Below, piece after piece: positions 8,769 through 26,025 of a stretch of DNA of 32,694 nt. The notes under the pieces are model-generated. The model was not told the DNA's origin. It searched no databases and saw nothing but the letters and a program-made list of their open reading frames with translations. Origin of the DNA: a virus (lineage: Duplodnaviria; Heunggongvirae; Uroviricota; Caudoviricetes); the IMG/VR virus record IMGVR_UViG_3300002756_000060, positions 1-32,694 of that record; one strand, written 5' to 3'. Made by a program: the position numbers and the translations under genes. Position 1 is the first letter of the stretch. Every line of letters starts with the position of its first letter.

Positions 8769-10132
8769 GCATGCATTTGCGTCCCAGCCAGATCGAGTTC
8801 TGGCCGCTGGACCGCCTCAAGCCCTATGCCCGCAACGCCAAGACCCATGACGCCGATCAGGTGGCGCGGATCGCCGCCAGCATGGCCGAGTTCGGCTGGA
8901 CCGTGCCCTGCCTGGTTGGCGACGATGGCGACCTGATCGCGGGCCATGGTCGCGTTCTTGCCGCCGCGCAGCTGGGCCTGGCGGAGGCACCCGTCATCGT
9001 GCTGGGCCATCTGACCGAGGCGCAGCGCCGGGCCTATCGCATCGCCGACAACAAGCTGACCGAGTTGGGCGGCTGGGACGAGGGCCTGCTGCTGGAGGAA
9101 CTGCGGGGGCTTATGGCCGCCGAGTTCGACCTCGGGCTGATCGGCATCCCCGAGGACGAGCTGGATGCCCTGCTGCGCGACGCCGATGACGACAGTGTGC
9201 CCATCGACGACGACACAGCCGATACCATCCCGGAGCCCCCGGCCGAGCCGATCACCCGGCCCGGCGATATCTGGGCGCTGGGCGCGCACCGGCTGATCTG
9301 CGGCGATGCCACCGACGCGGATGTCGTGGCCAGGCTTATGGAGGGCGCGCAGTCGTCGCTGATGTTCACCTCGCCGCCCTACGCCCAGCAGCGCGACTAT
9401 GGCGCGGCCAGGGAGACGGTGGGCGACTGGGACGCGCTGATGCAGGGCGTCTTCGCGGCGGCACCGGTCACCGACGCGGCCCAACTGCTGGTCAATCTCG
9501 GCCTCGTGCATCGCGACGGTGAGTGGCTCCCCTATTGGGAGCGCTGGGTCGAGTGGATGCGCAGCTCTGGCTGGCGGCGCTTCGGCTGGTATGTCTGGGA
9601 TCAGGGGCCGGGCCTGCCCGGCGACTGGAATGGCCGCCTCGCGCCCTCGCACGAGTTCATCTTCCACTTCAACCGCCAACCCCGGAAGCCCAACAAGACG
9701 GTGCCGTCCAAGCACGCGGGCGAAACCTTGGGCGGCGGTGGGCTGCGCGGGGTCAACGGCACCGTCCACGCCAAGCGAGGGGCCGGCAACGCGATCCAGA
9801 GCCATCGCATCCCGGACTCGGTGTTTCGTATCATGCGCCACAAGGGCGGGCTGGGTGCTGCCGGATCGCATCCGGCCGTGTTCCCGGTGGCGCTGGTCGA
9901 GGCCGTGCTGACCGCGTTCAGCGATCCAGGCGACCTGATCTACGAGCCGTTCTGTGGCTCCGGCACGCAGATCGTTGCCGCCGAACGCGCTGGGCGGCGC
10001 TGCTTCGCGATGGAGCTGGATCCGGTCTATTGCGACGTCGCCATGCGGCGATGGGAACTGGCGACGGGGCGGACGGCGCAGTTGGAAAATCGCAACGAGA
10101 CCACCATTGGCAAGGAGACAAAACAGCAATGA
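8765..10132 (+). CDS. ParB-like nuclease domain fused to DNA methyltransferase (beta-class, motif IV SPPY; N4-cytosine type predicted)
   Basis: ParB-type N-terminus (KPYARNAKTHDADQVARIAASMAEFGW...); motif IV LMFTSPPYAQQRDYG; motif I YEPFCGSGTQIVAAE; ATGA overlap with the upstream gene at 8765-8768. Confidence 0.85.
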   Translation: MSMHLRPSQIEFWPLDRLKPYARNAKTHDADQVARIAASMAEFGWTVPCLVGDDGDLIAGHGRVLAAAQLGLAEAPVIVLGHLTEAQRRAYRIADNKLTELGGWDEGLLLEELRGLMAAEFDLGLIGIPEDELDALLRDADDDSVPIDDDTADTIPEPPAEPITRPGDIWALGAHRLICGDATDADVVARLMEGAQSSLMFTSPPYAQQRDYGAARETVGDWDALMQGVFAAAPVTDAAQLLVNLGLVHRDGEWLPYWERWVEWMRSSGWRRFGWYVWDQGPGLPGDWNGRLAPSHEFIFHFNRQPRKPNKTVPSKHAGETLGGGGLRGVNGTVHAKRGAGNAIQSHRIPDSVFRIMRHKGGLGAAGSHPAVFPVALVEAVLTAFSDPGDLIYEPFCGSGTQIVAAERAGRRCFAMELDPVYCDVAMRRWELATGRTAQLENRNETTIGKETKQQ

Positions 10133-10638
10133 TCATCGACACCCCGATCTGGCGAAACGCCGACCTCATTCGGATCATTCCGATCACACGCGCGGACCTG
10201 AACCAGGCCATATCCCGAAACGACTTTCAGCCTGAAAACACACCCAAGCCCGGAAAGGCGCGCTGGTACAGCTGGAGAGACGTGGTGTCGGTTGCTGCCG
10301 CACAGGACTTGCGCAAACTTGGCTTTGGTCCGTCCATCGCATTTAGGCTGGTGCAAAACCACCTGTCACCGTTTCTGCGGGGTAGCATAGACGCCCCGGA
10401 CGATTGCGCAGGAGTGCTTTGGCTTATCCGTCCAAGTGACGACCATCTCAACATTGAGACCCCGTGTGAGTTCCTGCGCCACACCGAATACGAGGCACTC
10501 CTTGTCACGCCAGACGAGAGCGCCTGCATCATCGTGAATATCGGTCGCATTGCAGCACGCGTTCGCGATGACCTGCAGGCGACCGAGACCGCCAAGGTCA
10601 TCCGTGAGGAATTTCAGATCACGGGACCGGTGATGTGA
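10129..10638 (+). CDS. hypothetical protein (169 aa)
   Basis: ATG 10129 overlaps the upstream stop (ATGA); AAGGAGA Shine-Dalgarno at 10112-10118; conserved paralog at 25216-25725. Confidence 0.6.
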   Translation: MIIDTPIWRNADLIRIIPITRADLNQAISRNDFQPENTPKPGKARWYSWRDVVSVAAAQDLRKLGFGPSIAFRLVQNHLSPFLRGSIDAPDDCAGVLWLIRPSDDHLNIETPCEFLRHTEYEALLVTPDESACIIVNIGRIAARVRDDLQATETAKVIREEFQITGPVM

Positions 10639-10844
10639 CCCAATCGCGCGGCATGTCGCTGATCGAGGCCATCACCAATGTCGCGGTGGGCTATGCGCTG
10701 GCCGTCGCCGCGCAGATCGCGGTTTTCCCGTGGTTCGGCCTGCATGCGAGCATTGGCGAGAACCTCACCATCGGCGCCCTGTTCACCGGCATCTCGCTGC
10801 TGCGCAGCTACGCGCTGCGCAGGCTGTTCGAACGCTGGTGGTAA
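10635..10844 (+). CDS. small hydrophobic (probable membrane) protein, 69 aa
   Basis: GTG start overlapping the upstream stop (GTGA); two hydrophobic stretches (VAVGYALAVAAQIAVFPWFG, LTIGALFTGISLL); conserved paralog at 25722-25937. Confidence 0.5.
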   Translation: MTQSRGMSLIEAITNVAVGYALAVAAQIAVFPWFGLHASIGENLTIGALFTGISLLRSYALRRLFERWW

Positions 10845-10853
10845 CGCGCGGGA

Positions 10854-11309
10854 TCAAGCCGTGTCGAGCTTGTACACGGTGCCACGCCCGTCAACTTTCT
10901 CGGCAGTGACGGGCAGGCCCAGCTTCTTCTTGAGCCCGCCCGAGATCAGGCCACGTGCACTATGCGGCTGCCACGAGGTCGCCTCGACAATCTCGGCGAT
11001 GGATGCGCCCTCGGGCCGCTGAATGAGCGCGATGATCTGCGCCTGCTTCGTGCCCGAGCGGATGGCGACGGGTTTTGCGGTGTCCGCAGCTTCGGGCGTC
11101 GGTGCGACATCGGGCTTGGGCTTTCCCTTCCGCGCGCTGGCGACAGCGCTGACCACCACCGGCTCGATCCCGATGGCCTCCAGCCCGGCCTCGGTGGCGA
11201 TCAGCGTGGTGCCATGACCGTCACCGGTCTCGCGCCAGAGCGGCTCGCCGCGGCGGCTGTCGGCATCGACCTCCTCGATCCAGCCATTGGTGATCATGCG
11301 AGTGAACAC
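10854..11309 (-). CDS. DUF3489-like protein, probably a 5'-truncated copy
   Basis: Aligns with the C-terminal ~150 aa of the 193-aa paralog at 26938-27519 (WRETGDGHGTTLIATEAGL...SIAEIVEATSW...GRGTVYKL); start abuts a divergent gene at 11312 with no promoter space. Confidence 0.5.
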   Translation of the reverse strand: MFTRMITNGWIEEVDADSRRGEPLWRETGDGHGTTLIATEAGLEAIGIEPVVVSAVASARKGKPKPDVAPTPEAADTAKPVAIRSGTKQAQIIALIQRPEGASIAEIVEATSWQPHSARGLISGGLKKKLGLPVTAEKVDGRGTVYKLDTA

Positions 11310-12778: not shown

Positions 12779-15652
12779 ATGTTCACCGCTTACCATGGCA
12801 AATATACCGCATATGATCTTACGAAGCTGGCGCCGCCCGGCTCGGACGATCAGTTGTCAATGTCGTTGTTCGATGCATCGGTTGATCTCAATCCTCATCA
12901 GATTGAGGCCGCGATGTTCGCGCTTCAATCGCCGCTGGCTGAAGGCGCGATACTTGCGGATGAGGTCGGCCTCGGCAAAACCATCGAGGCAGGCATTGTC
13001 CTTTGCCAGAAATGGGCTGAGCGAAAACGGAAACTAATCATCATCTGCCCAGCGGCCATTCGACAGCAGTGGGCTGCAGAACTGACGAACAAGTTCAATC
13101 TTCCCGCAGTCGTCATTGACGCTCGGACCTATCGACAGATGAAGATGGAAGGCATTCCATTCCCTTTGTCACAGAAGCGGATCGTCGTGCTATCCTATCA
13201 TTATGCTGCAAAGCTTCAGGATGAGCTTCGGCAAGTCGATTGGGATCTGGTTGTTATCGACGAAGCGCACAAGCTTCGTAACTCGTACCGACCCAGCAAT
13301 CGCATCGGGCAAGCTCTTCAACGAGCAGTCGAAGGCCGCAAAAAGCTCCTGCTGACGGCTACTCCCCTCCAAAACAGCTTGATGGAGATATTCGGGCTTA
13401 CGAACTTCATTGATCCAAACATTTTCGGCGATGCCAACAGCTTCCGGTCGAAGTATGTGAATGCCGGTGGCGATCTGCCCGAGCTTCGCGCAAGGCTCGC
13501 GGATTTCTGCAAGCGCACGCTTCGGAAGCAGGTTCTCGAGTATGTCAAATATACTCAGCGCCGTGCCATCACGCAGCCATTCTCGCCGGCGGAGAACGAG
13601 CAGGCGCTGTATGACGGCATTACGCGCTTCCTACAACGAGAGGACACCTATGCAATACCCTCTCAACAGCGCCATCTAACCGTTCTTATCCTGCGGAAGC
13701 TTCTCGCTTCGTCATCACAGGCCATCGCAGGGACGCTTGAGACCCTACGCGCCCGCTTGGTAGCCCTGCAGAAAGGGGAACCGGTAAAGGATGATCTGGC
13801 GGAGGTGATTTCATTCGAGAACGAGCTCGAAGAAGAAATTCTCGACGAATGGGATGATGACGATGCGCAAGACCCCACAGGGGCCGAGCAAATCGACTTC
13901 GCCAAGCTTCGCCTGGAAATCGACGATATTTCAGGTCTGATCCAGCTTGCACATTCGATCCAGATCGATACTAAGTCCAAAGCGCTGCTACAGGCTCTCG
14001 AGATAGGCTTTTCGGAGCAGGAGCGGATGGGCGCACAGAGAAAAGCCCTGATCTTCACAGAGTCGCGCCGCACCCAAGACTATCTCCGCGATTTCCTCGC
14101 GCGCTACGGTTACGCCAATCAAATTGTGACCTTCAGTGGCACTAATTCCGACCGCAAGGCACAGGAAATTTACGAGCGCTGGCTTACCGATCCGAAGAGC
14201 GCCGAGCAGATTACAGGATCGCGCGCCATCGATGTTCGTGCTGCACTGATAGAAGAATTCCGCGACAATGCCTCGATCATGATCGCAACCGAGGCCGCCG
14301 CCGAGGGTGTCAACCTGCAATTCTGCTCGCAGGTCATCAACTACGACCTTCCGTGGAACCCGCAGAGGATCGAACAGCGCATCGGACGCTGCCATCGCTA
14401 TGGGCAGACGCATGATGTGATCGTCGTGAACTTCCTGAACGAACGCAACGATGCAGATAAACGGGTTCACGCGCTTCTAACCGAGAAGTTCAATCTGTTC
14501 GATGGTGTATTTGGGGCTTCAGACGAGGTCTTGGGAACGATTGAGTCCGGCGTCGACTTCGAAAAGCGCATTCTGGCGATTTACCAGGACTGCCGCACTC
14601 CGGAGGCCATCGCCGCAGCTTTTGATGAACTTCAGACCCAGCTCGAGGAACAAATTCGGAGCCGAATGGAGGATACAAGGCGGGCCCTGCTGGAGAACTT
14701 CGACGAGGATGTCCACGCCCGCCTGAAGCTGCGCCTCGCTGACGCCCGCGAACAGTTGGACCGTGTCGGGCGCCGGTTTTGGGATCTGACCACTGCTATC
14801 CTCGCCGACAAGGCCAAATTCGATGAACCAAATCTGGCCTTCGACCTTCTGGCCCCGCCGACCCGCGACCTGCGACCGGGCCGCTATCACCTGATCTCGC
14901 GGAACTCGGCCGCAGACCCGGCCAAGAACGAACACGGCTATTTCCTCTACCGGCTGTCGCACCCTCTTGGCGAGCATGTCATTGAATCGGCCAAGGCCGC
15001 TGACACGCCAGTGGCCGAATTGCGGTTCGATGTGACCAATCACCCCACACGCGTGGCCATCGTCGAGGCGCTGAAAGGGCGGCGCGGCTGGCTGACGCTG
15101 CGCAAACTTGCGGTGACGACCTTCGAGACCGAGGAATACCTGCTATTCTCGGGCATCGACGACAATGGTCGCTCCATCGACCACGAAGCCTGCGCCAAGC
15201 TGTTCTCGGTCGGTGCTGGCGTTCACCCCATCGACATGCCCGCCCCTGCCATCGCCGACCTCCTTCAGGCTGAGGCCGAGCAGCATGCCAAAGCCACCTT
15301 GAACCGGTCGCTGGATGCCAACAACAAGCACTTTGCCTCGGCCCGTGAAAGGCTGGAGCGCTGGGCTGAGGACAAGGTCTACGCGGCAGAGAAGGCGCTG
15401 AAGGACACCAAGGAACAGATCAAGGGGGTGCGTCGCGAGGCGCGGGCAGCTACCACACTCGAAGAAGAAGCCGCCATCCAAGCCAAACTGCAGGAACTGG
15501 AACGTCGCCAGCGCAAGCAGCGGCAGGAAATCTTCAACCAGGAAGACGAAGTGGCCGACAAGCGGGACGAGTTGATCGCCAACCTTCAAAAGCGGCTCAG
15601 CCGTGGCCACTCGGTTGAATCGCTGTTTACGGTCCGCTGGGCCGTCGTGTAG
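12779..15652 (+). CDS. SNF2-family (SF2) helicase/ATPase
   Basis: Motif I LADEVGLGKTIEAG; motif II LVVIDEAHKLRN; motif III LLLTATPLQNSLMEIFGL; C-terminal helicase motifs ALIFTESRRT, IMIATEAAAEGVNLQ, DLPWNPQRIEQRIGRCHRYGQ; AT-richer codon usage than neighbours. Confidence 0.9.
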   Translation: MFTAYHGKYTAYDLTKLAPPGSDDQLSMSLFDASVDLNPHQIEAAMFALQSPLAEGAILADEVGLGKTIEAGIVLCQKWAERKRKLIIICPAAIRQQWAAELTNKFNLPAVVIDARTYRQMKMEGIPFPLSQKRIVVLSYHYAAKLQDELRQVDWDLVVIDEAHKLRNSYRPSNRIGQALQRAVEGRKKLLLTATPLQNSLMEIFGLTNFIDPNIFGDANSFRSKYVNAGGDLPELRARLADFCKRTLRKQVLEYVKYTQRRAITQPFSPAENEQALYDGITRFLQREDTYAIPSQQRHLTVLILRKLLASSSQAIAGTLETLRARLVALQKGEPVKDDLAEVISFENELEEEILDEWDDDDAQDPTGAEQIDFAKLRLEIDDISGLIQLAHSIQIDTKSKALLQALEIGFSEQERMGAQRKALIFTESRRTQDYLRDFLARYGYANQIVTFSGTNSDRKAQEIYERWLTDPKSAEQITGSRAIDVRAALIEEFRDNASIMIATEAAAEGVNLQFCSQVINYDLPWNPQRIEQRIGRCHRYGQTHDVIVVNFLNERNDADKRVHALLTEKFNLFDGVFGASDEVLGTIESGVDFEKRILAIYQDCRTPEAIAAAFDELQTQLEEQIRSRMEDTRRALLENFDEDVHARLKLRLADAREQLDRVGRRFWDLTTAILADKAKFDEPNLAFDLLAPPTRDLRPGRYHLISRNSAADPAKNEHGYFLYRLSHPLGEHVIESAKAADTPVAELRFDVTNHPTRVAIVEALKGRRGWLTLRKLAVTTFETEEYLLFSGIDDNGRSIDHEACAKLFSVGAGVHPIDMPAPAIADLLQAEAEQHAKATLNRSLDANNKHFASARERLERWAEDKVYAAEKALKDTKEQIKGVRREARAATTLEEEAAIQAKLQELERRQRKQRQEIFNQEDEVADKRDELIANLQKRLSRGHSVESLFTVRWAVV

Positions 15653-15685: not shown

Positions 15686-18600
15686 ATGAGCAATTTTGAC
15701 GCCCTCGTTGCCAAGCTGCGCGAAATCTTCCAGATCGACCGGCCTGACCTCGATTTTGGCGTCTACCGTATCCTCAACGCCCGCGCGGGGGAAATCGAGG
15801 ATTACCTGTCCAAGCGTCTGAAGGCGCGGGTGGCCGAAGCACTGGCTGCCGGTGCTGCGGCCAATACCGAAACGCTGAAGGCCGCGATTGAGAAAGCGCG
15901 CGAAGCTGCTGAGGCCGCAGGGTACAATTCAGACGAAGCTCCGAGAGTTCTGAGCCTCCAGAAGGAACTTGCAGCCGCCAGCGGGGCCACGTCGGAGCAT
16001 GAAAATCAGGTCTTCTCGCACCTGTTGACCTTCTTCTCGCGCTACTACGACAAGGGCGATTTCATCAGCCAGCGCCGGTACAAGGGTGATACCTATGCCA
16101 TCCCCTATTCCGGGGAAGAGGTCGTGCTGCACTGGGCGAACCGCGATCAGTATTACATCAAAAGCGGAGAATCCTTCTCGAACTTCAGCTTCAAGCTGGA
16201 TGACGGTCGACTTGTGCATTTCCGCCTTGTCGCTGCCGATACGGCCAAAGACAACCGCAAGGATAACGACAAGGAGCGCCGCTTCGTTCTGGCCACCGAG
16301 CGCACGGTCACGCGCCTTGACGAGGAGGGCGAGGGTTTTGAAGAAACCATCCGTCCGATCGAGGAAGAGGATGGCGCGCTGGTCATCCGGTTCGACTTTG
16401 CAGCACAGCCCAAAGGGACCAAGCAAGAAAAACTGGTTGAGGCGGCGGTGGAAACCATTCTGGACAGCGAGACTTTCAAATCGAGATGGCTGGAACTGAC
16501 CAACCGCGCGCCGACGGAAAAGAAACCGCAGCGCACCTTGCTGGAAAAGCACCTGACGACCTACACGCAAAAGAACACCGCCGATTACTTCATTCACAAG
16601 GATCTGGATGGTTTTCTGCGGCGCGAACTGGATTTCTACATCAAGAACGAGGTGATGAACCTGGACGATGTGCAGGAGGCCGGGGCCTTTGCCGCCATCG
16701 AAAGAAACCTACGGATGATCCAATGCCTGCGGGCCATCGCTCTGGACCTGATTACCTTTCTGGCCAGCATCGAGAATCTCCAGAAAAAGCTATGGCTGAA
16801 AAAGAAATTCGTGGTGGCGGCGCAGTATTGCGTGACGCTGGACCGGGTGCCGGAGGCGCTTTACCCGGCTATCGCGGCGAACCCCGCGCAATGGGCGCAG
16901 TGGCATGATCTGGGGATGCGGGCATCCGCGGCGCCGGGGACGGTGGAGGATCTGAAAGCCGCGCCCTTCCTGATGGTGGACACCGCGCTCTTTGATGCGG
17001 GTTTCCGGGCTGACCTGTTGAAGGCGATCCCCGATCTGGATGCTAGCCTCGACGGGCTGCTGGTTCATGGGGACAATTTTCAGGCGCTGAACCTTTTGCA
17101 GGATCGATACCGGGAAAAGGTCAAATCAATCTATATCGACCCGCCTTACAACACTGACGCAGGACCGATCAGTTACAAGAACGGCTACCGGAGTTCGTCG
17201 TGGGTTGCCATGATGCACGACCGCGTGAAACTCGGGCGTGAGCTATTGCCTCTCGACGGGTTGCTCACCGCCACGATCGATGACTATCAGTACCGTGAAT
17301 TGCACTTCGCCATTGAAGAGGTTTTTGGCGCTCAAAACCTCGCAGGTACCGTTGTAATCCGAATGAACCCGTCTGGCCGCCCGCTCCCACAAGGCTTCGC
17401 ACAGTCCCACGAATACGCAATCGTCGCGAAGCGGTCAGACTTAGCTCAGATCGAGAACTTACCGAGAAGCGAGAAGCAGAACGCCAGATATAAGCACCGC
17501 GATGACGACGGTCAGATGTACATGTGGGAACTGTTCAGAAAGCGCGGATCGAATTCCGAAAGAACTGACCGGCCTTCGCTGTATTATCCGATCTATCTCC
17601 GGGGTGAGGACTTTCGGGTTCCCCGAATGACTTATGATCCTGATCGCAAGGATTGGGATATTCATGAAGAACCGGATACCGACGAAAGCGTCATCTACCC
17701 TATTGACGACAACGGAACCTTGCGCACGTGGCGTGGCTCACCGGATGATTTGATCGATAATCCAAGCAACTATCGTGTGAAGATCGAGGACAGCAAAGTC
17801 ACGGTCTACTACAAGTTTCGCCCCAACTCTGAGGGTGTGCTTCCGCTCACCAACTGGATCGATGCCAAATACTCCGCAACGGAGCATGGAACGGGATATC
17901 TCAAGAACTTCTTTTCGGAATACAACGTTTTCTCCTATCCGAAGTCGATCTACGCGGTTGAAGACTGCATCAGGGTTGGTGGCGCAACGGCCAATGCAAC
18001 CGTCCTCGACTATTTTGCAGGATCGGGCACGACTGGACACGCAGTCATAAACTTGAACCGGTCCGACCAAGGGTCTCGAAAGTACATCTTGGCCGAGCAA
18101 GGCGCTTACTTCGAAACTGTCATTAAGCCACGCTTAAAGAAGGCAGTGTTTTCTGCTGATTGGTCAGAGGGTAAACCCACCGCCCCCGAAACCGGCATCA
18201 GCCATGCCTTCAAGGTACTCAAGATCGAGGGCTATGAGGACACGCTGAACAATCTTGATCTGAAGCGTTCGGAGGCGCAGGCCAGTCTTCTGGAACGGTT
18301 CAGCGCCGACAAGCGCGACGACTATTTGATGCGCTACATGCTGGATGTCGAGGGACGCGGCTCGCTCCTGTCCATCTCGGATTTCCGCAAGCCCTTTGAC
18401 TACTCGCTCAAGGTCGCCGTCGACAGCGCCGGGGCCTGGGAGGAGCGCAAGGTCGATCTGGTCGAGACCTTCAACTACCTGATCGGCCTGACCGTCCGCC
18501 ATATCGACATCCAGCTTCGCCAAGGCTTCGCCACGGTCGAGGGCTGGTTGCCAACGGGTGAGCGGACCCTGATCCTGTGGCGCGACTGCGATAAAATCGG

Positions 18601-18805
18601 CTATGAGGAATTGACGCGCCTGTGCGACAAACTGGCGATTAACCCGGCCGACAGCGAATACGACGTGGTCTACATCAACGGCGACCACAATATCCCCTCG
18701 GTGGTGGAAACGACCGAGGAAGAGGGCAGCGTTATCAAGAAGCTGATGCTGCGCCAGATCGAACCCGCCTTCCTCGATGCGATGTTCAACGTGGATGACG
18801 TCTGA
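15686..18805 (+). CDS. Type III Mod-like beta-class DNA methyltransferase with ~480-aa N-terminal extension
   Basis: LLVHGDNFQALNLLQDRYREKVKSIYIDPPYNT (motif IV) precedes VLDYFAGSGTTGHAV (motif I); AAGGAAA Shine-Dalgarno at 15670-15676; 1039 aa. Confidence 0.85.
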   Translation: MSNFDALVAKLREIFQIDRPDLDFGVYRILNARAGEIEDYLSKRLKARVAEALAAGAAANTETLKAAIEKAREAAEAAGYNSDEAPRVLSLQKELAAASGATSEHENQVFSHLLTFFSRYYDKGDFISQRRYKGDTYAIPYSGEEVVLHWANRDQYYIKSGESFSNFSFKLDDGRLVHFRLVAADTAKDNRKDNDKERRFVLATERTVTRLDEEGEGFEETIRPIEEEDGALVIRFDFAAQPKGTKQEKLVEAAVETILDSETFKSRWLELTNRAPTEKKPQRTLLEKHLTTYTQKNTADYFIHKDLDGFLRRELDFYIKNEVMNLDDVQEAGAFAAIERNLRMIQCLRAIALDLITFLASIENLQKKLWLKKKFVVAAQYCVTLDRVPEALYPAIAANPAQWAQWHDLGMRASAAPGTVEDLKAAPFLMVDTALFDAGFRADLLKAIPDLDASLDGLLVHGDNFQALNLLQDRYREKVKSIYIDPPYNTDAGPISYKNGYRSSSWVAMMHDRVKLGRELLPLDGLLTATIDDYQYRELHFAIEEVFGAQNLAGTVVIRMNPSGRPLPQGFAQSHEYAIVAKRSDLAQIENLPRSEKQNARYKHRDDDGQMYMWELFRKRGSNSERTDRPSLYYPIYLRGEDFRVPRMTYDPDRKDWDIHEEPDTDESVIYPIDDNGTLRTWRGSPDDLIDNPSNYRVKIEDSKVTVYYKFRPNSEGVLPLTNWIDAKYSATEHGTGYLKNFFSEYNVFSYPKSIYAVEDCIRVGGATANATVLDYFAGSGTTGHAVINLNRSDQGSRKYILAEQGAYFETVIKPRLKKAVFSADWSEGKPTAPETGISHAFKVLKIEGYEDTLNNLDLKRSEAQASLLERFSADKRDDYLMRYMLDVEGRGSLLSISDFRKPFDYSLKVAVDSAGAWEERKVDLVETFNYLIGLTVRHIDIQLRQGFATVEGWLPTGERTLILWRDCDKIGYEELTRLCDKLAINPADSEYDVVYINGDHNIPSVVETTEEEGSVIKKLMLRQIEPAFLDAMFNVDDV

Positions 18806-21800
18806 TGGCGCGTGCGGCGAAGAAAAAGCGCACCTTCCATCACGAGTTGGTGCTGAACCGCTGGATGCTGAGCCATTTTTACGGTGACGGCCTGATGACG
18901 CTCAAATCGCGGTTGGGCGATGACCGGTTTGAGGGTATCGACGACGATGGCCAGACCAAGTTCTTTCATGAGCTGACGCGCAACCTGTTCAACATGGACC
19001 GCGTCACCGAGGCCGAGCTGCGCCGCTATGACCTGAACATCGTCGCATATTGGCAGAAGATCACCCATCGCCGCAACGCCGCCACGGGCGAATTGCTGAC
19101 GATGAAATATTTTCAGTATCTGTCGCTGCTGTTCACCGAGATCTACCTCGACTGGTATTTCAACCGGCGACAGGACTTGCTGGACGGGCTGAATGCCCAA
19201 ATGGCCGCGTATCGGAAAGAGGACGGGGCCGAACCGTTTCGCGATTATAGCGCCGACGACCTCAACAAGCTCGCCTTCTGGAACGCGACAGGCAGCGGCA
19301 AGACCCTGCTGCTGCATGTGAACATCCTGCAGTACCTGCATTACTTCCAGGCGGGCAACGGCAACCTATTTCCCGACCGGATCATCCTGCTGACCCCAAA
19401 CGAGGGACTGTCACGCCAGCATCTGGAGGAATTCCGCGAGTCCGGCATCAACGCCCATGTCTTCGACAAGAACCAGACAGGTTCGCTGTTCAAGGGCTGG
19501 GTGGATGTGATCGAAGTCACGAAGCTGGCCGACGAGATGGGCGACAAGACCGTCGCCACCGGCGCGTTCGAGGGCAACAACCTGGTGCTGGTCGACGAAG
19601 GCCACCGCGGCACCGGCAGTGCGGGCGGGGTCTGGATGGCGAGGCGCGCGGCGCTGGTGAAGGGCGGCTTTGCTTTTGAATACAGCGCGACCTTCAGCCA
19701 ATCAGTCGCCAAGGGCGCCACGGTTGCAAAGGCCGAGGAAGACATCCTGAAGGCCAAGGCGAAGCGCCTGTTCGACAAGACTTTGAAACAGCTGGACGAC
19801 ACGGAACGCGCACAACTGCAGCTGACCAACGAAGATCGCGCCCGCGCCCGCATCGACGGCATTCGCGAGGCCTACGCCAAGGCGGTGCTGATCGACTACA
19901 GCTACAAGTATTTCTACGCCGACGGTTACGGGAAGGAATCCCTGATCCTGAACCTGGACGACAAGGGCTATGACAACCATGGCGATCTGTATTTCACAGC
20001 GTGCTTGCTCAGCTTCTACCAGCAGCTCTGGCTCTGGGACACGCACCGCGACAAGATCAGGGACTTCAATATCGAGAAGCCGTTGTGGGTCTTCGTGGGC
20101 AACACTGTGGCCGGAGAGGACAGCGATATCCTCGAAGTCATCAAGTTCCTCGCCTGGTTTCTGAACCATCCCAGCGAAGCCACGACATGGATCGCAGACC
20201 TCGTTGCCGACAAGGCGCGGCTGCTGGACCCGAAGGGTAACGACGTATTCGCGGGGCGCTTCTCCCCCTTGATGCAGCGTGATGCCGCGACGATCTATGA
20301 CGATATCCTGAAGCGGCTGTTTAACGCCGATGCGAGGCAGCGGCTGAAGTTGGTGAACCTGAAGAACAGCAAGGGTGAGCTGGCCCTGCGGGTCGGATCG
20401 TTCGATCCCTTTGGCCTGATCAACATCGGCGACGATTCCGGCTTCTTCAAGAACGCCGAGGACAGCAGCGACTTCGATACCGAAGCGGACGATTTCGGGA
20501 CCGGGCTGTTTGGCACGATCAACCAGAAAGATAGCAAGCTGAATGTCCTGATCGGGTCGCGGAAATTCACCGAAGGCTGGTCAAGCTGGCGGGTGTCGAC
20601 CATGGGTCTACTCAACATGGGGCAAGGCGAAGGCTCACAGATCATTCAGCTTTTCGGTCGCGGCGTCCGCCTGAAAGGACGCGGCATGTCGCTGAAACGG
20701 TCACTCCCCGCCGAGCGGCCGAAGGGCACGCACATGGAACGCCTTGAAACGCTGAACATCTTCGGCGTCCGGGCGAACTACATGGCCACCTTCAAGGACT
20801 ACCTGAAGGAGGAAGGCATCACGCCGAGCGACGAAATCATTCAGCTCGACTTCCCGACCAGGACGAACCTGCCGTCCGGGACTAGGCTCAAGACGCTCAA
20901 GCTGAAAGATGGCTATAAGGATAATCAGATCAAGGGCTTCAAGCGCGTCCACTATCCGACGTTATACGAGGTCCCGGCCGAGTTCGCGGGCAAGATCAAG
21001 CCTCCACACGTCCTGCTCGACCTTTATCCGCGAGTCGAAGCGATCACGACCACGGCGAACGCAACGGCGGGCGCACCGGACAAGCGAAATCGTGGCAAAC
21101 TGAGCAAGGCGGCAATCGCCTGCTTTGATTGGGATGCGGTATTCACCGCCGTTCAGGAATACAAGCTCCTGAAAAGCTGGAGCAACCTGAAGGTCGACCG
21201 AGAGCGCCTATACCAGTTCTGTCTTGGCGACAACAGCTGGTACACCCTTTTGATCCCCCAAGCGGAACTGGAAGTGTCGGACTTTTCAGATGTGCTGCGT
21301 CAGCAGGACATCATGCTTCAGCTGCTTACCGACTATACCGACCGTTTCTATCAAGGGCTGAAGGCGGCTTATGAGGGCAAATTCTACGATGTCGCGCCGG
21401 TTACGGAGGACTCCGGCTCGATCATCAAACTGTACCAGTTTGAGATCGAAAACACCGATGTCGGTCTTGAGTACAAGGCAAAGCTTGAGGTCCTTTCCGC
21501 CCTCGTCGCGTCTGGAAAAATCGGCGAGGCCAGCAATTGGAACGCACCCCATATGGTGGCGATCAGCTTCGGACAGCACCTGTATTATCCCCTGCTCTCT
21601 CCGATCAAAGATGCGGTCGTCCCACTAAAGATGCGACCACTGGCAATTGGAGAACCAAGCGAGGTGCAGTTCGTTGAGGACGTCATGGCCTACTACGACT
21701 CGCCTTCAGGGAAAGAGAGGCTGAAAGGCTTCAGCCTTTACCTGCTGCGCAATGCCGACAATCGCGCCAAGGGGCTCGGTTTCGCTCTGGCAGGCAACTT

Positions 21801-22122
21801 CTATCCTGACTTCCTGCTCTGGCTGGTGGACGACAAAACTGGCAAGCAGTGGCTATCATTCATCGATCCTAAGGGCATTCGAAACCTGAACATTTCGGAC
21901 CCGAAGTTTGGCTTGTATAGGGAAATCAAGCAGATCGAGAACCAGCTGGGTGACGGCATGATCAGCCTAAACGCCTTCATCCTGTCCGTGACGACCTTCA
22001 GCGACCTGCTAAATGTCACAGGCTCTACCACGAAATCGGAGCTCGAGGACCGAAATGTCCTATTCATGGGCGACGGGGGGCCGACATATCTTGATAAGCT
22101 GCTGGCCAGAGCCCTCACCTGA
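18805..22122 (+). CDS. Res-like ATPase/helicase with candidate C-terminal PD-(D/E)xK nuclease
   Basis: Walker A FWNATGSGKTLLLHV; Walker B-type LVLVDEGHRG; C-terminal YPDFLLWL...FIDPKG; start overlaps the Mod-like stop (TGATG), so co-operonic; 1105 aa. Confidence 0.75.
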   Translation: MARAAKKKRTFHHELVLNRWMLSHFYGDGLMTLKSRLGDDRFEGIDDDGQTKFFHELTRNLFNMDRVTEAELRRYDLNIVAYWQKITHRRNAATGELLTMKYFQYLSLLFTEIYLDWYFNRRQDLLDGLNAQMAAYRKEDGAEPFRDYSADDLNKLAFWNATGSGKTLLLHVNILQYLHYFQAGNGNLFPDRIILLTPNEGLSRQHLEEFRESGINAHVFDKNQTGSLFKGWVDVIEVTKLADEMGDKTVATGAFEGNNLVLVDEGHRGTGSAGGVWMARRAALVKGGFAFEYSATFSQSVAKGATVAKAEEDILKAKAKRLFDKTLKQLDDTERAQLQLTNEDRARARIDGIREAYAKAVLIDYSYKYFYADGYGKESLILNLDDKGYDNHGDLYFTACLLSFYQQLWLWDTHRDKIRDFNIEKPLWVFVGNTVAGEDSDILEVIKFLAWFLNHPSEATTWIADLVADKARLLDPKGNDVFAGRFSPLMQRDAATIYDDILKRLFNADARQRLKLVNLKNSKGELALRVGSFDPFGLINIGDDSGFFKNAEDSSDFDTEADDFGTGLFGTINQKDSKLNVLIGSRKFTEGWSSWRVSTMGLLNMGQGEGSQIIQLFGRGVRLKGRGMSLKRSLPAERPKGTHMERLETLNIFGVRANYMATFKDYLKEEGITPSDEIIQLDFPTRTNLPSGTRLKTLKLKDGYKDNQIKGFKRVHYPTLYEVPAEFAGKIKPPHVLLDLYPRVEAITTTANATAGAPDKRNRGKLSKAAIACFDWDAVFTAVQEYKLLKSWSNLKVDRERLYQFCLGDNSWYTLLIPQAELEVSDFSDVLRQQDIMLQLLTDYTDRFYQGLKAAYEGKFYDVAPVTEDSGSIIKLYQFEIENTDVGLEYKAKLEVLSALVASGKIGEASNWNAPHMVAISFGQHLYYPLLSPIKDAVVPLKMRPLAIGEPSEVQFVEDVMAYYDSPSGKERLKGFSLYLLRNADNRAKGLGFALAGNFYPDFLLWLVDDKTGKQWLSFIDPKGIRNLNISDPKFGLYREIKQIENQLGDGMISLNAFILSVTTFSDLLNVTGSTTKSELEDRNVLFMGDGGPTYLDKLLARALT

Positions 22123-22150: not shown

Positions 22151-22225
22151 ATGGTTCCTCCCGGGCGCGATCCGTATACGGGGGGGCTGAGCGCGGCATT
22201 TCGCTAGCGACTGGCTTTTTCACCG

Positions 22226-22427
22226 GGGAATCCACTTGGAAGCCACCCCGGCGGCCCTGCCGGAAATTGTGACTCAATTTCAGAACCTTACCCGACAGCA
22301 TCGGTGGCCAGGGTGGATTCCTTTTGGAAGCCAGGGAATCCACTTGGTGGGTTCTTTTGGCCAGAAAAGCCACCCTCAGGCCAGATCGGCAGAACACCTT
22401 GATTCCAAGCCACAAAATGGATTGACA
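22226..22427. repeat. Array of GGAA(T/G)CCA motifs in both orientations (paralog of 7137-7325)
   Basis: gggaatccacttggaagccacc occurs twice; ggtggccagggtggattcc (inverted); gattccaagccac. Confidence 0.6.
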
Positions 22428-22510
22428 TTTCTAGCCCCCTTGACGTACCCCTTGATTGTCGAAGAGTTGCGCCCGGAGGAAACCCCTCGCGGGCGCTTTT
22501 GCTTTCCCCC
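22422..22510 (+). promoter_or_regulatory. Promoter-like TTGACA/TTGACG/TTGATT elements followed by a GC stem (GCGCCCG 22469-22475 / CGGGCGC 22490-22496) and T-rich tract
   Basis: Same arrangement as 7336-7419; the conserved leader CATCGCGGACCCTGA follows in both copies. Confidence 0.4.
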
Positions 22511-22592
22511 ATCGCGGACCCTGACACAGCAACCGGCGTTTGCCGGGGCTTGCATTGGTCTGTCCGCCCTGCCCCGGATCCGAACCCCACCC

Positions 22593-23855
22593 ATGGACCT
22601 TGTCTTTGCGCCGAGCCAGATCGAGAGCTGGCCGATCGACCGGCTGCGCCCCTATGCCCGCAATGCCAAGATCCACGGCACGGACCAAGTCGCCAAGATC
22701 GCGGCAAGCATGGCCAAGTTCGGCTGGACCGTGCCTTGCTTGGTGGCTGACGATGGCGATCTGATTGCGGGCCACGGTCGGGTGCTGGCCGCCATCATGC
22801 TGGGGCTGACCGAGGTGCCGGTGATCCGGCTCGGCCACCTGGATGAAGCGGAGCGCCGGGCGTACCGGATCGCGGACAACAAATTGACCGAGTTGGGCGA
22901 ATGGGACGAGGCAATGCTGCGCGACGAGATCGCGGGGCTGCTGGCCGAGGATTTCGACCTTACGCTGCTGGGCATCAGCGAGGATGATCTCGATGCGCTG
23001 TTGCGGGATCCCGATGCGCTGGGCGGCGATGGCCCCGTCGAGGGCGAGGACGACGTTCCGGAGTTACCGGTCACCCCGGTCTCGGTGGCGGGTGACCTTT
23101 GGCAGCTTGGATCGCACCGGCTGATCTGCGGCGACAGCACCTCCGCCGATGTCGTCGGGCGGCTGCTCGGCGACGTGAAGCCGTTGCTGATGGTGACGGA
23201 CCCGCCTTACGGCGTGGAGTATGACCCAAGCTGGCGCAACCAGGCGGGCGCGGCCAAAACCAAACGAACCGGCAAGGTGCTGAACGACGACCGGGCCGAC
23301 TGGCGCGAGGCATGGGCGCTGTTCCCCGGCGATGTCGCCTATGTCTGGCACGGCGCGCTGCATGCAGCGACGGTTGCTGAAAGCCTCTTGGTTGCAGGTT
23401 TTGCCATTCGCTCGCAGATTATCTGGGCCAAGGACCGGCTGGTCCTCAGCCGCGGCGATTACCACTGGCAGCATGAGCCCTGCTGGTATGCGGTGCGCGT
23501 CAAGGGCAAGGGGCACTGGGCGGGCGACCGCAAGCAGACCACATTGTGGCAGATCGCCAACCGCGATCAAGATGCCGACACAGTGCACGGCACGCAAAAG
23601 CCGGTCGAATGCATGCGCCGTCCGATCCTGAACAATTCCAGCCCCGGGCAGGCGGTGTTTGAACCCTTTATGGGGTCTGGCACCACGCTGATCGCGGCTG
23701 AAACCACGGGACGCGTCTGCTTTGGGATCGAGTTGAACCCGGCCTACGTTGATGTGGCCATCGAGCGCTGGCAGCAATTCACCGGCGCCAATGCCGTGCT
23801 GGCGGAAACGGGCGAGACCTTCGCCGAGTTGAAGGCCAAAAGGCTGGCCGCATGA
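22593..23855 (+). CDS. ParB-like nuclease domain fused to DNA methyltransferase (DPPY type), paralog of 7506-8768
   Basis: MDLVFAPSQIESWPIDRLRPYARNAK...; LMVTDPPYG; FEPFMGSGTTLIAAE; 8 differences from the first copy in the first 62 residues. Confidence 0.85.
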   Translation: MDLVFAPSQIESWPIDRLRPYARNAKIHGTDQVAKIAASMAKFGWTVPCLVADDGDLIAGHGRVLAAIMLGLTEVPVIRLGHLDEAERRAYRIADNKLTELGEWDEAMLRDEIAGLLAEDFDLTLLGISEDDLDALLRDPDALGGDGPVEGEDDVPELPVTPVSVAGDLWQLGSHRLICGDSTSADVVGRLLGDVKPLLMVTDPPYGVEYDPSWRNQAGAAKTKRTGKVLNDDRADWREAWALFPGDVAYVWHGALHAATVAESLLVAGFAIRSQIIWAKDRLVLSRGDYHWQHEPCWYAVRVKGKGHWAGDRKQTTLWQIANRDQDADTVHGTQKPVECMRRPILNNSSPGQAVFEPFMGSGTTLIAAETTGRVCFGIELNPAYVDVAIERWQQFTGANAVLAETGETFAELKAKRLAA

Positions 23856-25219
23856 ACGCGCCCCTCCTGCCGGGCCGGATCGAACATTGGCCGCTGGCCC
23901 GGCTGAAGCCCTATGCCCGCAACGCCAAGACCCATGACGCCGATCAGGTTGTGAAGATCGCTGCCAGCATGGCCGAGTTTGGCTGGACCGTCCCCTGCCT
24001 CGTCGCCGCCGATGGTGAGTTGATCGCAGGCCATGGCCGCATCCTGGCGGCGGCCCAGCTGGGGCTGTCCGAGGCCCCGGTCATCGTGCTGGACCATCTG
24101 ACCGAGGCGCAACGCCGGGCCTATCGCATCGCCGACAACAAGCTCACCGAGCTGGGCGGCTGGGACGAGGCCCTGCTCCTCGAGGAGCTGCGCGGGCTGT
24201 TGGCCGAGGATTTCGACCTCGGGCTGATCGGGATCCCCGAGGATGAGCTGGACGCGCTGCTGCACGCGGGCGACGAAGAGCGCCCATCGATTTCTGACGA
24301 TGCGGCTGATGCCATCCCCGCCCCGCCTGCCGAACCCATCACTAAGGCGGGCGACATCTGGGCGCTGGGCAAGCACCGGCTATGCTGCGGCGACGCGACC
24401 GATCCGGCCGCTGTCGCCAGGTTGATGCAGGGTGCAGAAGCCGCGCTGATGTTCACCTCGCCACCCTATGCCCAGCAGCGCGACTATGGCGCGGCCAGGG
24501 AAAAACTCGGCGATTGGGATGCGCTGATGCAGGGCGTGTTCACTGCAGCGCCGGTCACCACCGACGCACAGCTGCTGGTCAACCTCGGCCTCGTGCACCG
24601 GGACAGCGAATGGCAACCCTATTGGGAAGGATGGGTCGAATGGATGCGCAAATCTGGCTGGCGACGCTTTGGCTGGTATGTGTGGGATCAGGGCCCGGGC
24701 TTGCCGGGCGACTGGAACGGCCGCCTGGCCCCGTCGCACGAGTTCATTTTCCACTTCAACCGCGCGCCCCGCAAACCGCACAAGACGGTCCAGTCAAAGC
24801 ACGCGGGCGAAACTTTGGGCGGCGGCGGGCTGCGCGGGGCCGACGGCACCGTGCATGCCAAAACCGGCACAGGCAACGCGATCCAGAGCCACCGCATCCC
24901 GGACTCTGTCTTCCGCATCATGCGCCACAAGGGCGGGCTGGGTGCGGCCGGATCGCATCCGGCGGTGTTCCCCGTGGCGCTGGTCGAGGCCGTGCTGACC
25001 GCATTCTCGGATCCGGGCGACCTGATCTACGAGCCGTTCTGCGGCTCCGGCACCCAGATCGTCGCCGCCGAACGCGCTGAGCGGCGCTGCTTCGCGATGG
25101 AACTGGATCCCGTCTATTGCGACGTCGCCGTGCGGCGATGGGAACTGGCGACGGGGCGAAAGGCACAGTTGGAAAATCGCAACGAAACCACCATTGGCAA
25201 GGAGACAAAACAGCAATGA
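23852..25219 (+). CDS. ParB-like nuclease domain fused to DNA methyltransferase (SPPY type), paralog of 8765-10132
   Basis: KPYARNAKTHDADQVVKIAASMAEFGW; LMFTSPPYAQQRDYG; YEPFCGSGTQIVAAE; ATGA overlap with the upstream gene. Confidence 0.85.
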   Translation: MNAPLLPGRIEHWPLARLKPYARNAKTHDADQVVKIAASMAEFGWTVPCLVAADGELIAGHGRILAAAQLGLSEAPVIVLDHLTEAQRRAYRIADNKLTELGGWDEALLLEELRGLLAEDFDLGLIGIPEDELDALLHAGDEERPSISDDAADAIPAPPAEPITKAGDIWALGKHRLCCGDATDPAAVARLMQGAEAALMFTSPPYAQQRDYGAAREKLGDWDALMQGVFTAAPVTTDAQLLVNLGLVHRDSEWQPYWEGWVEWMRKSGWRRFGWYVWDQGPGLPGDWNGRLAPSHEFIFHFNRAPRKPHKTVQSKHAGETLGGGGLRGADGTVHAKTGTGNAIQSHRIPDSVFRIMRHKGGLGAAGSHPAVFPVALVEAVLTAFSDPGDLIYEPFCGSGTQIVAAERAERRCFAMELDPVYCDVAVRRWELATGRKAQLENRNETTIGKETKQQ

Positions 25220-25725: not shown

Positions 25726-25937
25726 CCCAATCGCGCGGCATGTCGCTGATCGAAGCCGTCACCAACGTGGCGGTGGGCTATGTGCTCGCTGTCGCCACGC
25801 AGATCTTGGTGTTTCCATGGTTCGGCCTGCACCCGAGCCTTGGCGAGAACCTAGCGCTGGGCGGGGTCTTCATCGGCATATCGCTCCTGCGCAGCTACGC
25901 GCTGCGCAGGCTGTTCGAGCGCTGGACGCACTTGTGA
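25722..25937 (+). CDS. small hydrophobic (probable membrane) protein, paralog of 10635-10844
   Basis: MTQSRGMSLIEAVTNVAVGYVLAVATQILVFPWFGLHPSLGENLALGGVFIGISLL. Confidence 0.5.
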   Translation: MTQSRGMSLIEAVTNVAVGYVLAVATQILVFPWFGLHPSLGENLALGGVFIGISLLRSYALRRLFERWTHL

Positions 25938-25989
25938 TGCCAGTTCCTGATAAAAAATGCAGCTGAGAGAAGCGCCGAATTTTTGGCGC

Positions 25990-26010: not shown

Positions 26011-26025
26011 GAAATCCAGTAGACG

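What the first reader, a model, noticed from the sequence alone, without database searches (positions are those of the whole stretch)
15686..17150. ~480-residue N-terminal extension on the Mod-like methyltransferase
Canonical Type III Mod proteins as I recall them are roughly 600-700 aa, whereas this one is 1039 aa with motif IV only at about residue 490. The extension (starting MSNFDALVAKLREIFQIDRPDLDFGVYRILNARAGEIEDYL) may be a sensor, target-recognition or partner-interaction domain specific to this system.
Basis: inference. Interest (0 to 1): 0.4.

Follow-up and report, generated by a model that had tools for sequence, protein, structure and literature searches.

The report
Unannotated N-terminal domain of Eco86II-type Mod
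[quoted passage not shown] It is most likely a constant assembly module, not a sensor or a DNA-sequence reader.

Summary
ORF 15686-18805 (+) encodes 1039 aa, with DPPY at aa 485-488 and FAGSG at aa 777. Nothing before about aa 428 matches Pfam, NCBIfam or any solved structure.

The extension is not peculiar to this locus. The protein matches the PADLOC Type III methyltransferase profile PDLC03646 end to end. It is homologous, and probably orthologous, to the E. coli NCTC86 SNF2-mod-res locus (Mod 46%, Res 62%, SNF2 54% identity). That locus fits the published Eco86II system, a Type III 'third group' with an extra helicase gene 5' of mod.

The N-domain alone finds 2413 protein clusters. In all 150 listed hits it sits at the N-terminus, and intact members are about 1000-1100 aa.

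The N-domain is more conserved (79%) than the central methyltransferase/TRD region (41-62%). Its divergence tracks Res (r=0.94), the Mod C-terminal extension (0.91) and SNF2 (0.91). It does not track the central region (r about 0). This excludes a target-recognition role and argues against an arms-race sensor.

The AlphaFold2 model (pLDDT 76) has no counterpart in PDB or BFVD.

Best reading: an enlarged equivalent of the EcoP15I Mod N-terminal dimerisation domain, forming the constant chassis that assembles Mod2 and couples it to Res. This is inferred, not shown.

It is a new member of a known kind, of modest interest.

The parts
15686..18805 (+). mod gene: 1039-aa Eco86II-type Type III methyltransferase
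   Evidence: ORF. PADLOC PDLC03646 MTase_III matches aa 1-1035, 1128 bits. 46% identical to the E. coli NCTC86 Mod over the full length.
15686..16966 (+). N-terminal extension proper (aa 1-427): the feature under study
15686..15784 (+). aa 1-33: N-terminal helix plus invariant DLDFG.YR motif
   Evidence: Invariant L22 D23 F24 G25 Y27 R28 from Proteobacteria to haloarchaea. AF2 helix 3-14.
15785..16048 (+). aa 34-121: long helical hairpin with a variable tip (aa ~55-100)
   Evidence: AF2 helices 34-77 and 86-121. The tip is only 43-45% conserved. Most of this segment (about aa 55-95) is missing in the Priestia homologue.
16049..16420 (+). aa 122-245: antiparallel beta-meander carrying the two best-conserved loops (RRYKGDTYAIPYSGEEV.LHWAN.DQYY.K and AADTAKDNRKDNDKERRF)
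   Evidence: Blocks 121-140 and 181-200 are 97% conserved. The same loops have pLDDT below 50 in both AF2 models, at aa 129-163 or 145-163 and 187-192. Partly shared with PADLOC PDLC03638.
16421..16915 (+). aa 246-410: helical bundle with the invariant motifs N..DYFIHK.L..FL..EL.F...NE and FLA..E.F...L..K.KF
   Evidence: aa 281-410 are 87% conserved. Motifs are invariant across phyla. Shared with PADLOC PDLC03638, query 282-390.
16916..16966 (+). aa 411-427: variable linker between the extension and the methyltransferase
   Evidence: Length-variable in alignment A3. One homologue (P0082) carries a DUF559 endonuclease domain inserted exactly here.
16967..18130 (+). aa 428-815: beta-class amino-methyltransferase region (motif IV DPPY at nt 17138-17149; motif I FAGSG at nt 18014-18028) including the TRD; exchangeable cassette at about aa 501-780 (nt 17186-18025)
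   Evidence: Pfam N6_N4_Mtase 479-809. Mbo45V E=1e-30 and EcoP15I Mod 2.6e-23. Identity of this region is uncorrelated with the rest of the operon. aa 501-780 are 25% identical to the NCTC86 Mod.
18131..18802 (+). aa 816-1039: conserved C-terminal extension, likely an enlarged counterpart of the Res-contacting CTD of EcoP15I Mod
   Evidence: 78% conserved. No Pfam or NCBIfam hit. Co-diverges with Res, r=0.94. The EcoP15I CTD contacts Res (PMC4490356).
18805..22122 (+). res gene: 1105-aa SF2 helicase plus C-terminal PD-(D/E)xK-like nuclease; its start overlaps the mod stop (TGATG)
   Evidence: PADLOC PDLC03654 REase_III, 1537 bits. Pfam ResIII 151-296. GSGKT 163, DEGH 264, YPDF 1000, IDPKG 1020. 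Overlap seen. 62% identical to the NCTC86 Res.
12779..15652 (+). accessory SNF2-family helicase-like ATPase gene 5' of mod (33-nt gap)
   Evidence: Pfam SNF2-rel_dom plus Helicase_C. NCBIfam DISARM_DrmD_b 683 bits, below the 950 cut-off. 54% identical to the NCTC86 SNF2 protein. This is the 'third protein' of Murray et al. 2021.

Best explanation
The first ~427 residues are a genuine, ancient, family-defining domain of the Eco86II/BspHIV-type Type III restriction-modification Mod subunit. The predicted layout is a helical hairpin, a beta-meander and a helical bundle.

Its most likely role is that of a constant structural chassis. It sits where the short helical NTD sits in EcoP15I Mod, and that NTD intertwines to form the Mod2 dimer and limits Res binding to one protomer. 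I propose that the enlarged version assembles the Mod dimer. Together with the conserved C-terminal extension, it would dock and communicate with the cognate long Res.

The central methyltransferase/TRD cassette (aa ~501-780) is exchanged freely and supplies the sequence specificity.

Shown: family membership, constancy of the domain, co-divergence with Res, and absence of any target-recognition signature.

Inferred: dimerisation and Res coupling.
For: Family membership:
- End-to-end match to PADLOC PDLC03646. The NCTC86 Mod scores 2204 bits on the same profile.
- The NCTC86 locus has the same SNF2-mod-res order, with 54%, 46% and 62% identity. It fits the Eco86II description in PMC8259958.

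Constancy:
- N-extension (aa 1-455) 79% identity. MTase N-part 54%, TRD 41%, MTase C-part 62%, C-extension 78%.
- Against NCTC86: N-extension 60%, aa 501-780 25%, C-extension 50%.

Co-inheritance over 86 loci:
- ModN-Res r=0.94, ModN-ModC 0.91, ModN-SNF2 0.91. The central Mod region against any other part gives r about 0.
- Res lies downstream in 71 of 71 evaluable loci.

Architecture and interface hints:
- In all 150 listed hits the domain sits at the N-terminus; intact members are about 1000-1100 aa.
- The most conserved loops (aa 129-163, 187-192) are the lowest-confidence parts of both monomer models, as expected for segments that order on a partner.
- The domain is net acidic, pI 5.5.

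Published context:
- In EcoP15I the NTD forms the Mod2 interface and the CTD contacts Res (PMC4490356).
- Mod and Res of Eco86II co-purify without the helicase, and Mod alone methylates (PMC8259958).
Against: There is no direct evidence of dimerisation or Res contact; no multimer prediction could be run.

Co-divergence of genes in one operon is expected anyway. What is informative is only that the N-domain travels with Res and not with the catalytic cassette.

The helical hairpin tip, the most obvious dimerisation element, is variable and largely missing in Priestia.

There are about 25 invariant polar residues (D, E, H, K, R), which is more than a pure scaffold usually needs.

A 427-aa domain is far larger than the 47-aa EcoP15I NTD, so it probably does something more.
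Confidence: 0.5

Rival explanations
1. The N-domain is a sequence-independent DNA-contacting module, such as a clamp, a ruler or a sliding aid. It would hold or track DNA next to the recognition site during methylation or ATP-triggered diffusion.
For: The invariant basic and aromatic loops RRYKG...Y..PY...W...QYY.K and KDNRKDNDKERR are poorly ordered in the monomer models. The Natronosalvus homologue has a helix-hairpin-helix DNA-binding domain (Pfam HHH_5, E=4e-13) fused directly in front of the N-domain, which suggests that this end of Mod lies near DNA.
Confidence: 0.2
2. The N-domain is the docking site for the accessory helicase encoded 5' of mod (SNF2 here). It would recruit that helicase to the Mod2Res complex.
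For: SNF2 is present upstream in 63 of 80 evaluable loci, and its divergence correlates with that of the N-domain (r=0.91). The helicase association is reported for more than 500 genomes (PMC8259958).
Against: The domain is intact and equally conserved in 17 of 80 loci without SNF2 and in two haloarchaeal loci (Halobacterium, Natronosalvus) with no adjacent helicase on the mod strand. In Priestia and Athalassotoga the upstream gene is an unrelated UvrD plus PD-(D/E)xK helicase-nuclease. Purified Eco86II contained Mod and Res but no helicase peptides.
Confidence: 0.12
3. The N-domain has an activity of its own: an undescribed enzyme, or a small-molecule or protein sensor that licenses restriction.
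For: It shows unusually strong conservation, higher than the catalytic methyltransferase region. Many polar residues are invariant from Proteobacteria to archaea: D23, R28, R119, D125, R130, E144, E145, K159, E162, D300, H304, K305, E314, E322, K372, K374. No fold counterpart was found in PDB or BFVD.
Against: No known catalytic motif is present; the candidate E145-x-K is not conserved (position 147 is V, M, K, Y, T or H). Mod alone of the orthologue Eco86II simply methylates. Sensors of phage proteins are usually variable, and this domain is not.
Confidence: 0.1
4. The N-domain is a (second) target-recognition domain that contributes to sequence specificity.
Against: It is 79% identical across homologues whose TRD region is 41% identical. 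It is 91% identical to the Pseudorhodobacter homologue, whose central Mod region is 32% identical. Its divergence is uncorrelated with that of the central cassette (r=0.05).
Confidence: 0.03

Closest known systems
[quoted passage not shown] 2021, PLoS One, PMC8259958)
   Same: Same three-gene order, SNF2-mod-res. Same protein sizes: 963/1040/1126 aa against 957/1039/1105 aa here. Identity 54%, 46% and 62%. The N-extension is 60% identical and the C-extension 50%. Both Mods match PADLOC PDLC03646 end to end.
   Different: The central cassette is only 25% identical, so the recognition sequence must differ from GAGCC. Whether the product here is m4C or m6A is unknown. This copy sits in a prophage-like region of a Rhodobacteraceae-like genome. 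The paper does not mention the N-terminal extension at all.
EcoP15I Mod (PDB 4ZCF) and other canonical Type III Mods (Mbo45V 7DSU; the Mod chain of PDB 6K0W)
   Same: Beta-class motif order IV-TRD-X-I. The catalytic region is homologous (E=1e-30 to 2.6e-23). The layout NTD-MTase-TRD-MTase-CTD is the same. Conserved ends with a variable centre are also typical of mod alleles.
   Different: The canonical NTD is about 47 aa (aa 14-60) and the CTD about 105 aa. Here they are about 427 aa and 224 aa, with no detectable sequence or fold similarity. The partner Res is not detectable against PDB sequences by phmmer.
PADLOC PDLC03638 (a second 'MTase_III' profile, 816 positions)
   Same: It shares parts of the N-extension (query aa 106-196 and 282-390) and the methyltransferase N-part. 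The Priestia Mod aligns to it from residue 11.
   Different: It is shorter, with a compact N-domain and little or no C-terminal extension. I could not retrieve members to study their partners.
Class 1 DISARM (DrmD SNF2 helicase plus DrmMI methylase plus DrmABC)
   Same: An SNF2 helicase related to DrmD lies next to a DNA methyltransferase.
   Different: The helicase scores below the DrmD_b equivalog cut-off (683 against 950 bits). The methylase is a beta-class Type III Mod, not DrmMI. No DrmA, DrmB or DrmC is present.

Membership tests
Type III R-M Mod subunit | Beta-class amino-methyltransferase: motif IV (DPPY) N-terminal of the TRD, motif I (FxGxG) C-terminal | tested here: met
   DPPY at aa 485, FAGSG at aa 777. 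Pfam N6_N4_Mtase 479-809.
Type III R-M Mod subunit | Sequence homology to experimentally solved Type III Mods | tested here: met
   Mbo45V 1e-30, Mod chain of 6K0W 9e-27, EcoP15I Mod 2.6e-23, all over aa ~458-805 only.
Type III R-M system | Adjacent res gene encoding an SF2 helicase-like ATPase plus a C-terminal PD-(D/E)xK nuclease | tested here: met
   PADLOC REase_III, 1537 bits. ResIII domain. GSGKT, DEGH, and YPDF...IDPKG at aa 1000-1024. mod and res overlap as TGATG. The nuclease motif was read from the sequence and not confirmed by a profile.
Type III R-M system | Hemimethylation of an asymmetric site; ATP-dependent cleavage about 25 bp from one of two head-to-head sites | not testable with these tools
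   Shown biochemically for the homologous system Eco86II (PMC8259958), not for this locus.
Eco86II/BspHIV-type three-gene Type III system | Conserved SF2 helicase-like ATPase gene immediately 5' of mod, without a nuclease motif | tested here: met
   ORF 12779-15652 ends 33 nt before mod. Pfam finds only SNF2-rel_dom and Helicase_C.
Eco86II/BspHIV-type three-gene Type III system | All three proteins homologous over their full length to the E. coli NCTC86 locus | tested here: met
   Mod 46%, Res 62%, SNF2 54%. The identification of the NCTC86 locus as Eco86II is inferred from the paper's description: one Type III system in the strain, with a helicase 5' of mod.
Eco86II/BspHIV-type three-gene Type III system | N4-cytosine methylation | not testable with these tools
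   Per the paper, the m4C Mods carry DPPY/F, and canonical m6A Type III Mods also use DPPY (my own knowledge, not tested here), so motif IV does not discriminate. The catalytic cassette here is only 25% identical to the NCTC86 one.
PADLOC PDLC03646 (long MTase_III) | End-to-end match that includes the N- and C-terminal extensions | tested here: met
   aa 1-1035 against profile positions 1-1054 of 1057, 1128 bits. The N-extension alone scores 636 bits and the C-extension alone 272 bits.
Class 1 DISARM | DrmD equivalog score, plus DrmA, DrmB (DUF1998) and DrmC neighbours | tested here: not met
   DrmD_b 683 bits, below the 950 cut-off. The downstream genes are Res and ParB-methyltransferases.
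Any curated domain family for aa 1-427 | Significant Pfam, NCBIfam, PDB-sequence or PDB/BFVD fold match | tested here: not met

The most novel reading that the evidence does not exclude
The ~427-aa N-domain is a new protein fold with a function of its own inside Eco86II-type Type III enzymes. One possibility is a regulatory or enzymatic module that licenses Res, or that hands the complex over to the variable accessory helicase (SNF2 or UvrD-nuclease). That would explain why this widespread subgroup carries a third motor protein that is not needed for basic cutting or methylation.
Probability: 0.15. Interest if true: 0.55.

Novelty: new member of a known kind. Interest (0 to 1): 0.3.

Why it matters
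The gene is one more member of a Type III subgroup that has already been characterised biochemically, so the locus itself is ordinary.

What is worth recording is the domain. The subgroup's hallmark N-domain is more conserved than the catalytic region. It is present in thousands of sequences from Proteobacteria to archaea, and in about 3% of complete E. coli genomes. It still has no curated domain model. The one paper on these enzymes in the searched library does not mention it, and I found no structural counterpart.

Defining it would give annotators a clean marker for Eco86II-type systems. It would also give structural biologists a defined target for understanding how these three-gene Type III enzymes assemble, and what the extra helicase is for.

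Tried and rejected
- Pfam at E<=10, and NCBIfam, on aa 1-480 and on the C-terminal extension: nothing usable.
- phmmer of the full protein, and an HMM profile of a cross-phylum N-domain alignment, against PDB sequences: only the methyltransferase region hits.
- AFDB50 Foldseek: library not installed.
- Full-length AF2 model: did not raise confidence in the conserved loops.
- BLASTP of the N-domain against Res, SNF2 and the rest of Mod, looking for internal or partner homology: nothing.
- PD-(D/E)xK reading of D125...E144-E145-x-K: rejected, because the K position is not conserved.
- DISARM membership: rejected.
- Literature searches by accession numbers and by 'SNF2 + Type III + Klebsiella': empty or irrelevant.
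- A third homologue search with the Athalassotoga N-domain, meant to find the Res-dependent thermophile Mods (FnoB1III, DthLIII) and link the domain to Res-dependence: they did not appear among the listed hits.
- The first homologue search listed only truncated or frameshifted proteins, which briefly suggested a split architecture. The full-length search showed that the intact form is the norm.
Full report
**Observation.**
The window has an uninterrupted ORF at 15686-18805 (+) of 1039 codons, beginning MSNFDALVAKLREIFQIDRPDLDFGVYRILNARAGEIEDYL. DPPY (motif IV) is at aa 485-488 and FAGSG (motif I) at aa 777. Pfam recognises only N6_N4_Mtase at aa 479-809.

Solved Type III Mods are 567-644 aa: Mbo45V, the Mod chain of PDB 6K0W, and EcoP15I Mod. 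They align only to aa ~458-805, and query residue 458 corresponds to residue 100 of Mbo45V.

- aa 428-480 already belong to the canonical Mod N-terminus, so the family-specific extension is about aa 1-427.
- There is a second unannotated extension at the C-terminus (aa 816-1039).

The start codon has an AAGGA 13 nt upstream. It coincides with the start of homologues from Proteobacteria, Bacteroidota, Bacillota, Thermotogota and haloarchaea.

**Context.**
- Upstream, after a 33-nt gap, lies a 957-aa SNF2-family helicase (Pfam SNF2-rel_dom plus Helicase_C). It is DrmD-like but scores below the NCBIfam DrmD_b cut-off, 683 against 950 bits.
- Downstream lies a 1105-aa protein that matches PADLOC REase_III PDLC03654 end to end. 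It carries GSGKT, DEGH and a C-terminal YPDF...IDPKG nuclease-like motif. Its start overlaps the mod stop codon as TGATG.
- The cassette sits among phage genes: ParB-methyltransferases, several PHROG families, and small and large terminase.

**The architecture is a known family, not a peculiarity.**
The whole Mod, both extensions included, matches PADLOC MTase_III profile PDLC03646 over aa 1-1035 (1128 bits).
- A search with the full protein returned at least 8000 homologues; most of the 120 listed are 1000-1100 aa.
- The N-domain alone finds 2413 clusters at 50% identity with E<=1e-3, of which 908 have E<=1e-30. In all 150 listed hits it lies at the N-terminus, and intact members are about 1000-1100 aa.
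- It occurs on plasmids of Klebsiella, E. coli, Priestia, Hymenobacter, Athalassotoga and three haloarchaeal genera.
- It occurs in 162 of 5426 complete E. coli genomes.

Murray et al. [quoted passage not shown]
- These have an extra SF2 helicase-like gene 5' of mod, found in more than 500 genomes.
- M.Eco86II alone methylates GAGCC to m4C.
- Partially purified Eco86II contains Mod and Res but no helicase.
- It cuts about 25 bp 3' of head-to-head sites.

The NCTC86 chromosome holds exactly such a locus: SNF2 963 aa, Mod 1040 aa, Res-like 1126 aa. Its proteins are 54%, 46% and 62% identical to those of the window. Its Mod scores 2204 bits on PDLC03646. The window's system is thus a homologue, probably an orthologue, of Eco86II. 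That paper never mentions the N-terminal extension.

**What the extension is not.**
It is not a target-recognition domain. Mean identity to the window protein across 93 full-length homologues:

| Region | aa | Identity |
|---|---|---|
| N-extension | 1-455 | 79% |
| most conserved blocks | 121-205 / 281-410 | 90% / 87% |
| MTase N-part | 456-590 | 54% |
| TRD region | 591-745 | 41% |
| MTase C-part | 746-815 | 62% |
| C-extension | 816-1039 | 78% |

Against the NCTC86 Mod the figures are 60% for the N-extension, 25% for aa 501-780 and 50% for the C-extension.

Over 86 related loci, N-domain identity correlates with that of Res (r=0.94), the C-extension (0.91) and SNF2 (0.91). Identity of the central Mod region correlates with nothing (|r|<=0.18). 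The central cassette is therefore exchanged by recombination inside a constant frame. This is the pattern known for mod alleles, here with much larger constant ends. Such constancy also argues against a sensor engaged in an arms race.

**What it looks like.**
AlphaFold2 gives the same layout for aa 1-455 with a 101-sequence alignment (pLDDT 75.9) and for the full protein (pLDDT 78.6):
- a short N-terminal helix followed by the invariant DLDFG.YR motif;
- a long helical hairpin (aa 34-121) whose tip is variable, with about aa 55-95 missing in Priestia;
- an antiparallel beta-meander (aa ~136-242);
- a helical bundle (aa ~247-408);
- a variable linker (aa 411-427).

One homologue tolerates an inserted DUF559 endonuclease domain in that linker.

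The two most conserved stretches are RRYKGDTYAIPYSGEEV.LHWAN.DQYY.K and AADTAKDNRKDNDKERRF. They are the least confident parts of both models.

No counterpart was found in any of these searches:
- Foldseek on PDB: 0 hits at E<=0.001.
- Foldseek on BFVD: 0 hits at E<=0.001.
- PDB sequence-profile search.
- Pfam and NCBIfam.

The AFDB libraries were not available. 'No known fold' therefore holds only relative to solved and viral structures, and for a medium-confidence model.

A second PADLOC Type III profile (PDLC03638, 816 positions) shares parts of the domain, at aa 106-196 and 282-390.

**Most likely function.**
In EcoP15I, Mod consists of NTD (aa 14-60), MTase, TRD, MTase and CTD (aa 539-644). 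The NTD helices of the two protomers intertwine in the Mod2 interface, and their asymmetry prevents a second Res from binding. The CTD of one protomer contacts Res (PMC4490356).

The extension here occupies the NTD position, and the C-extension occupies the CTD position. Both co-diverge with Res and not with the catalytic cassette. The domain is acidic (pI 5.5). Its best-conserved loops look like segments that order on a partner.

I therefore favour a constant assembly and communication module: Mod2 formation plus coupling to the long Res. Confidence is about 0.5. Membership and constancy are shown; the interaction itself is inferred.

**Rivals.**
1. Non-specific DNA contact (0.2). It is supported by the basic and aromatic loops and by an HHH_5 DNA-binding domain fused in front of the N-domain in Natronosalvus. 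The acidic net charge weakens it.
2. Docking of the accessory helicase (0.12). SNF2 is upstream in 63 of 80 loci. However, the domain is unchanged where SNF2 is absent. The upstream gene is replaced by an unrelated UvrD plus PD-(D/E)xK protein in Priestia and Athalassotoga. There is no adjacent helicase in the two haloarchaeal loci examined. Eco86II purifies without the helicase.
3. An activity of its own (0.1). It is suggested by about 25 invariant polar residues and by conservation above that of the catalytic region. No motif supports it.
4. Target recognition (0.03). Effectively refuted.

**Verdict.**
The gene is a new member of the Eco86II-type Type III subgroup. Its N-domain is a widespread, uncurated and structurally orphan module that deserves a domain definition and a structure, but it is not a surprise at the level of the system. 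Interest 0.3.

Noticed in passing
window 7064-11300 and 22152-27400: Two diverged copies (74-84% nt identity) of a ~4.2-kb phage module. Each copy starts with a pair of ParB-type N6_N4 methyltransferases, followed by a phrog_10315 gene. Different defence cargo sits upstream of each copy: Type I HsdR, HARE-HTH and CHAT proteins before copy 1, and the SNF2-mod-res cassette before copy 2. This may be two related prophages in tandem, or one defence hot-spot that was duplicated.
   Followed up: partly
window 829-6840: A complete Type I HsdR (1043 aa) is followed by a HARE-HTH protein (4221-5219) and a CHAT-domain protein (5092-6840). No hsdM or hsdS is visible inside the window; the two small ORFs at 37-832 have no Pfam hit.
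   Followed up: no
window 18131-18802 (Mod aa 816-1039): The Mod also has a ~224-aa conserved C-terminal extension. It is 78% identical across homologues, has no Pfam or NCBIfam hit, and several of its segments have pLDDT below 50. It co-diverges with Res (r=0.94).
   Followed up: partly
window 18805-22122: The Res-like protein gives no phmmer hit to any PDB sequence, EcoP15I Res included. About 160 conserved residues precede its Walker A motif (GSGKT at aa 163). It is a very divergent Res family.
   Followed up: partly
L064 13141-14918; L059 13126-14217 (and about 22 other related loci): In 24 of 81 related loci, extra genes are inserted between mod and res. Examples are an AAA_15/AAA_21 ATPase plus a DUF4276 protein, or a RhuM-family protein. 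This resembles the cargo genes often embedded in Type I R-M operons.
   Followed up: partly
L002 6010-8955; L085 4892-7678: In Priestia and Athalassotoga, the gene 5' of the long mod is a UvrD-family helicase fused to a PD-(D/E)xK (Cas4/AddB-like) nuclease, not an SNF2 protein. The accessory motor of these Type III systems is therefore interchangeable.
   Followed up: partly
P0082 (Methylovulum sp., 670 aa, partial): A DUF559/Vsr-like endonuclease domain (PF04480, PF18741) is inserted in the linker between the N-domain and the methyltransferase, equivalent to window aa ~413-427.
   Followed up: no
L086 7446-7745 (Natronosalvus amylolyticus plasmid): A tandem helix-hairpin-helix domain (Pfam HHH_5, E=4e-13) is fused in front of the N-domain of the haloarchaeal Mod.
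   Followed up: partly
window 26026-26712: A NYN-domain (predicted RNase) ORF lies on the + strand and overlaps the region of the minus-strand ORF 26212-26868. Which of the two is the real gene was not resolved.
   Followed up: no
L004, L006, L008 (Pseudorhodobacter, Tabrizicola, and a MAG labelled Exiguobacterium profundum): The closest relatives (N-domain 87-91%, Res 93%) also share the two phage genes upstream of SNF2 (phrog_27243 and phrog_9306 homologues). The cassette therefore seems to travel with one prophage lineage in Rhodobacteraceae. The 'Exiguobacterium' MAG label looks taxonomically inconsistent with that.
   Followed up: no
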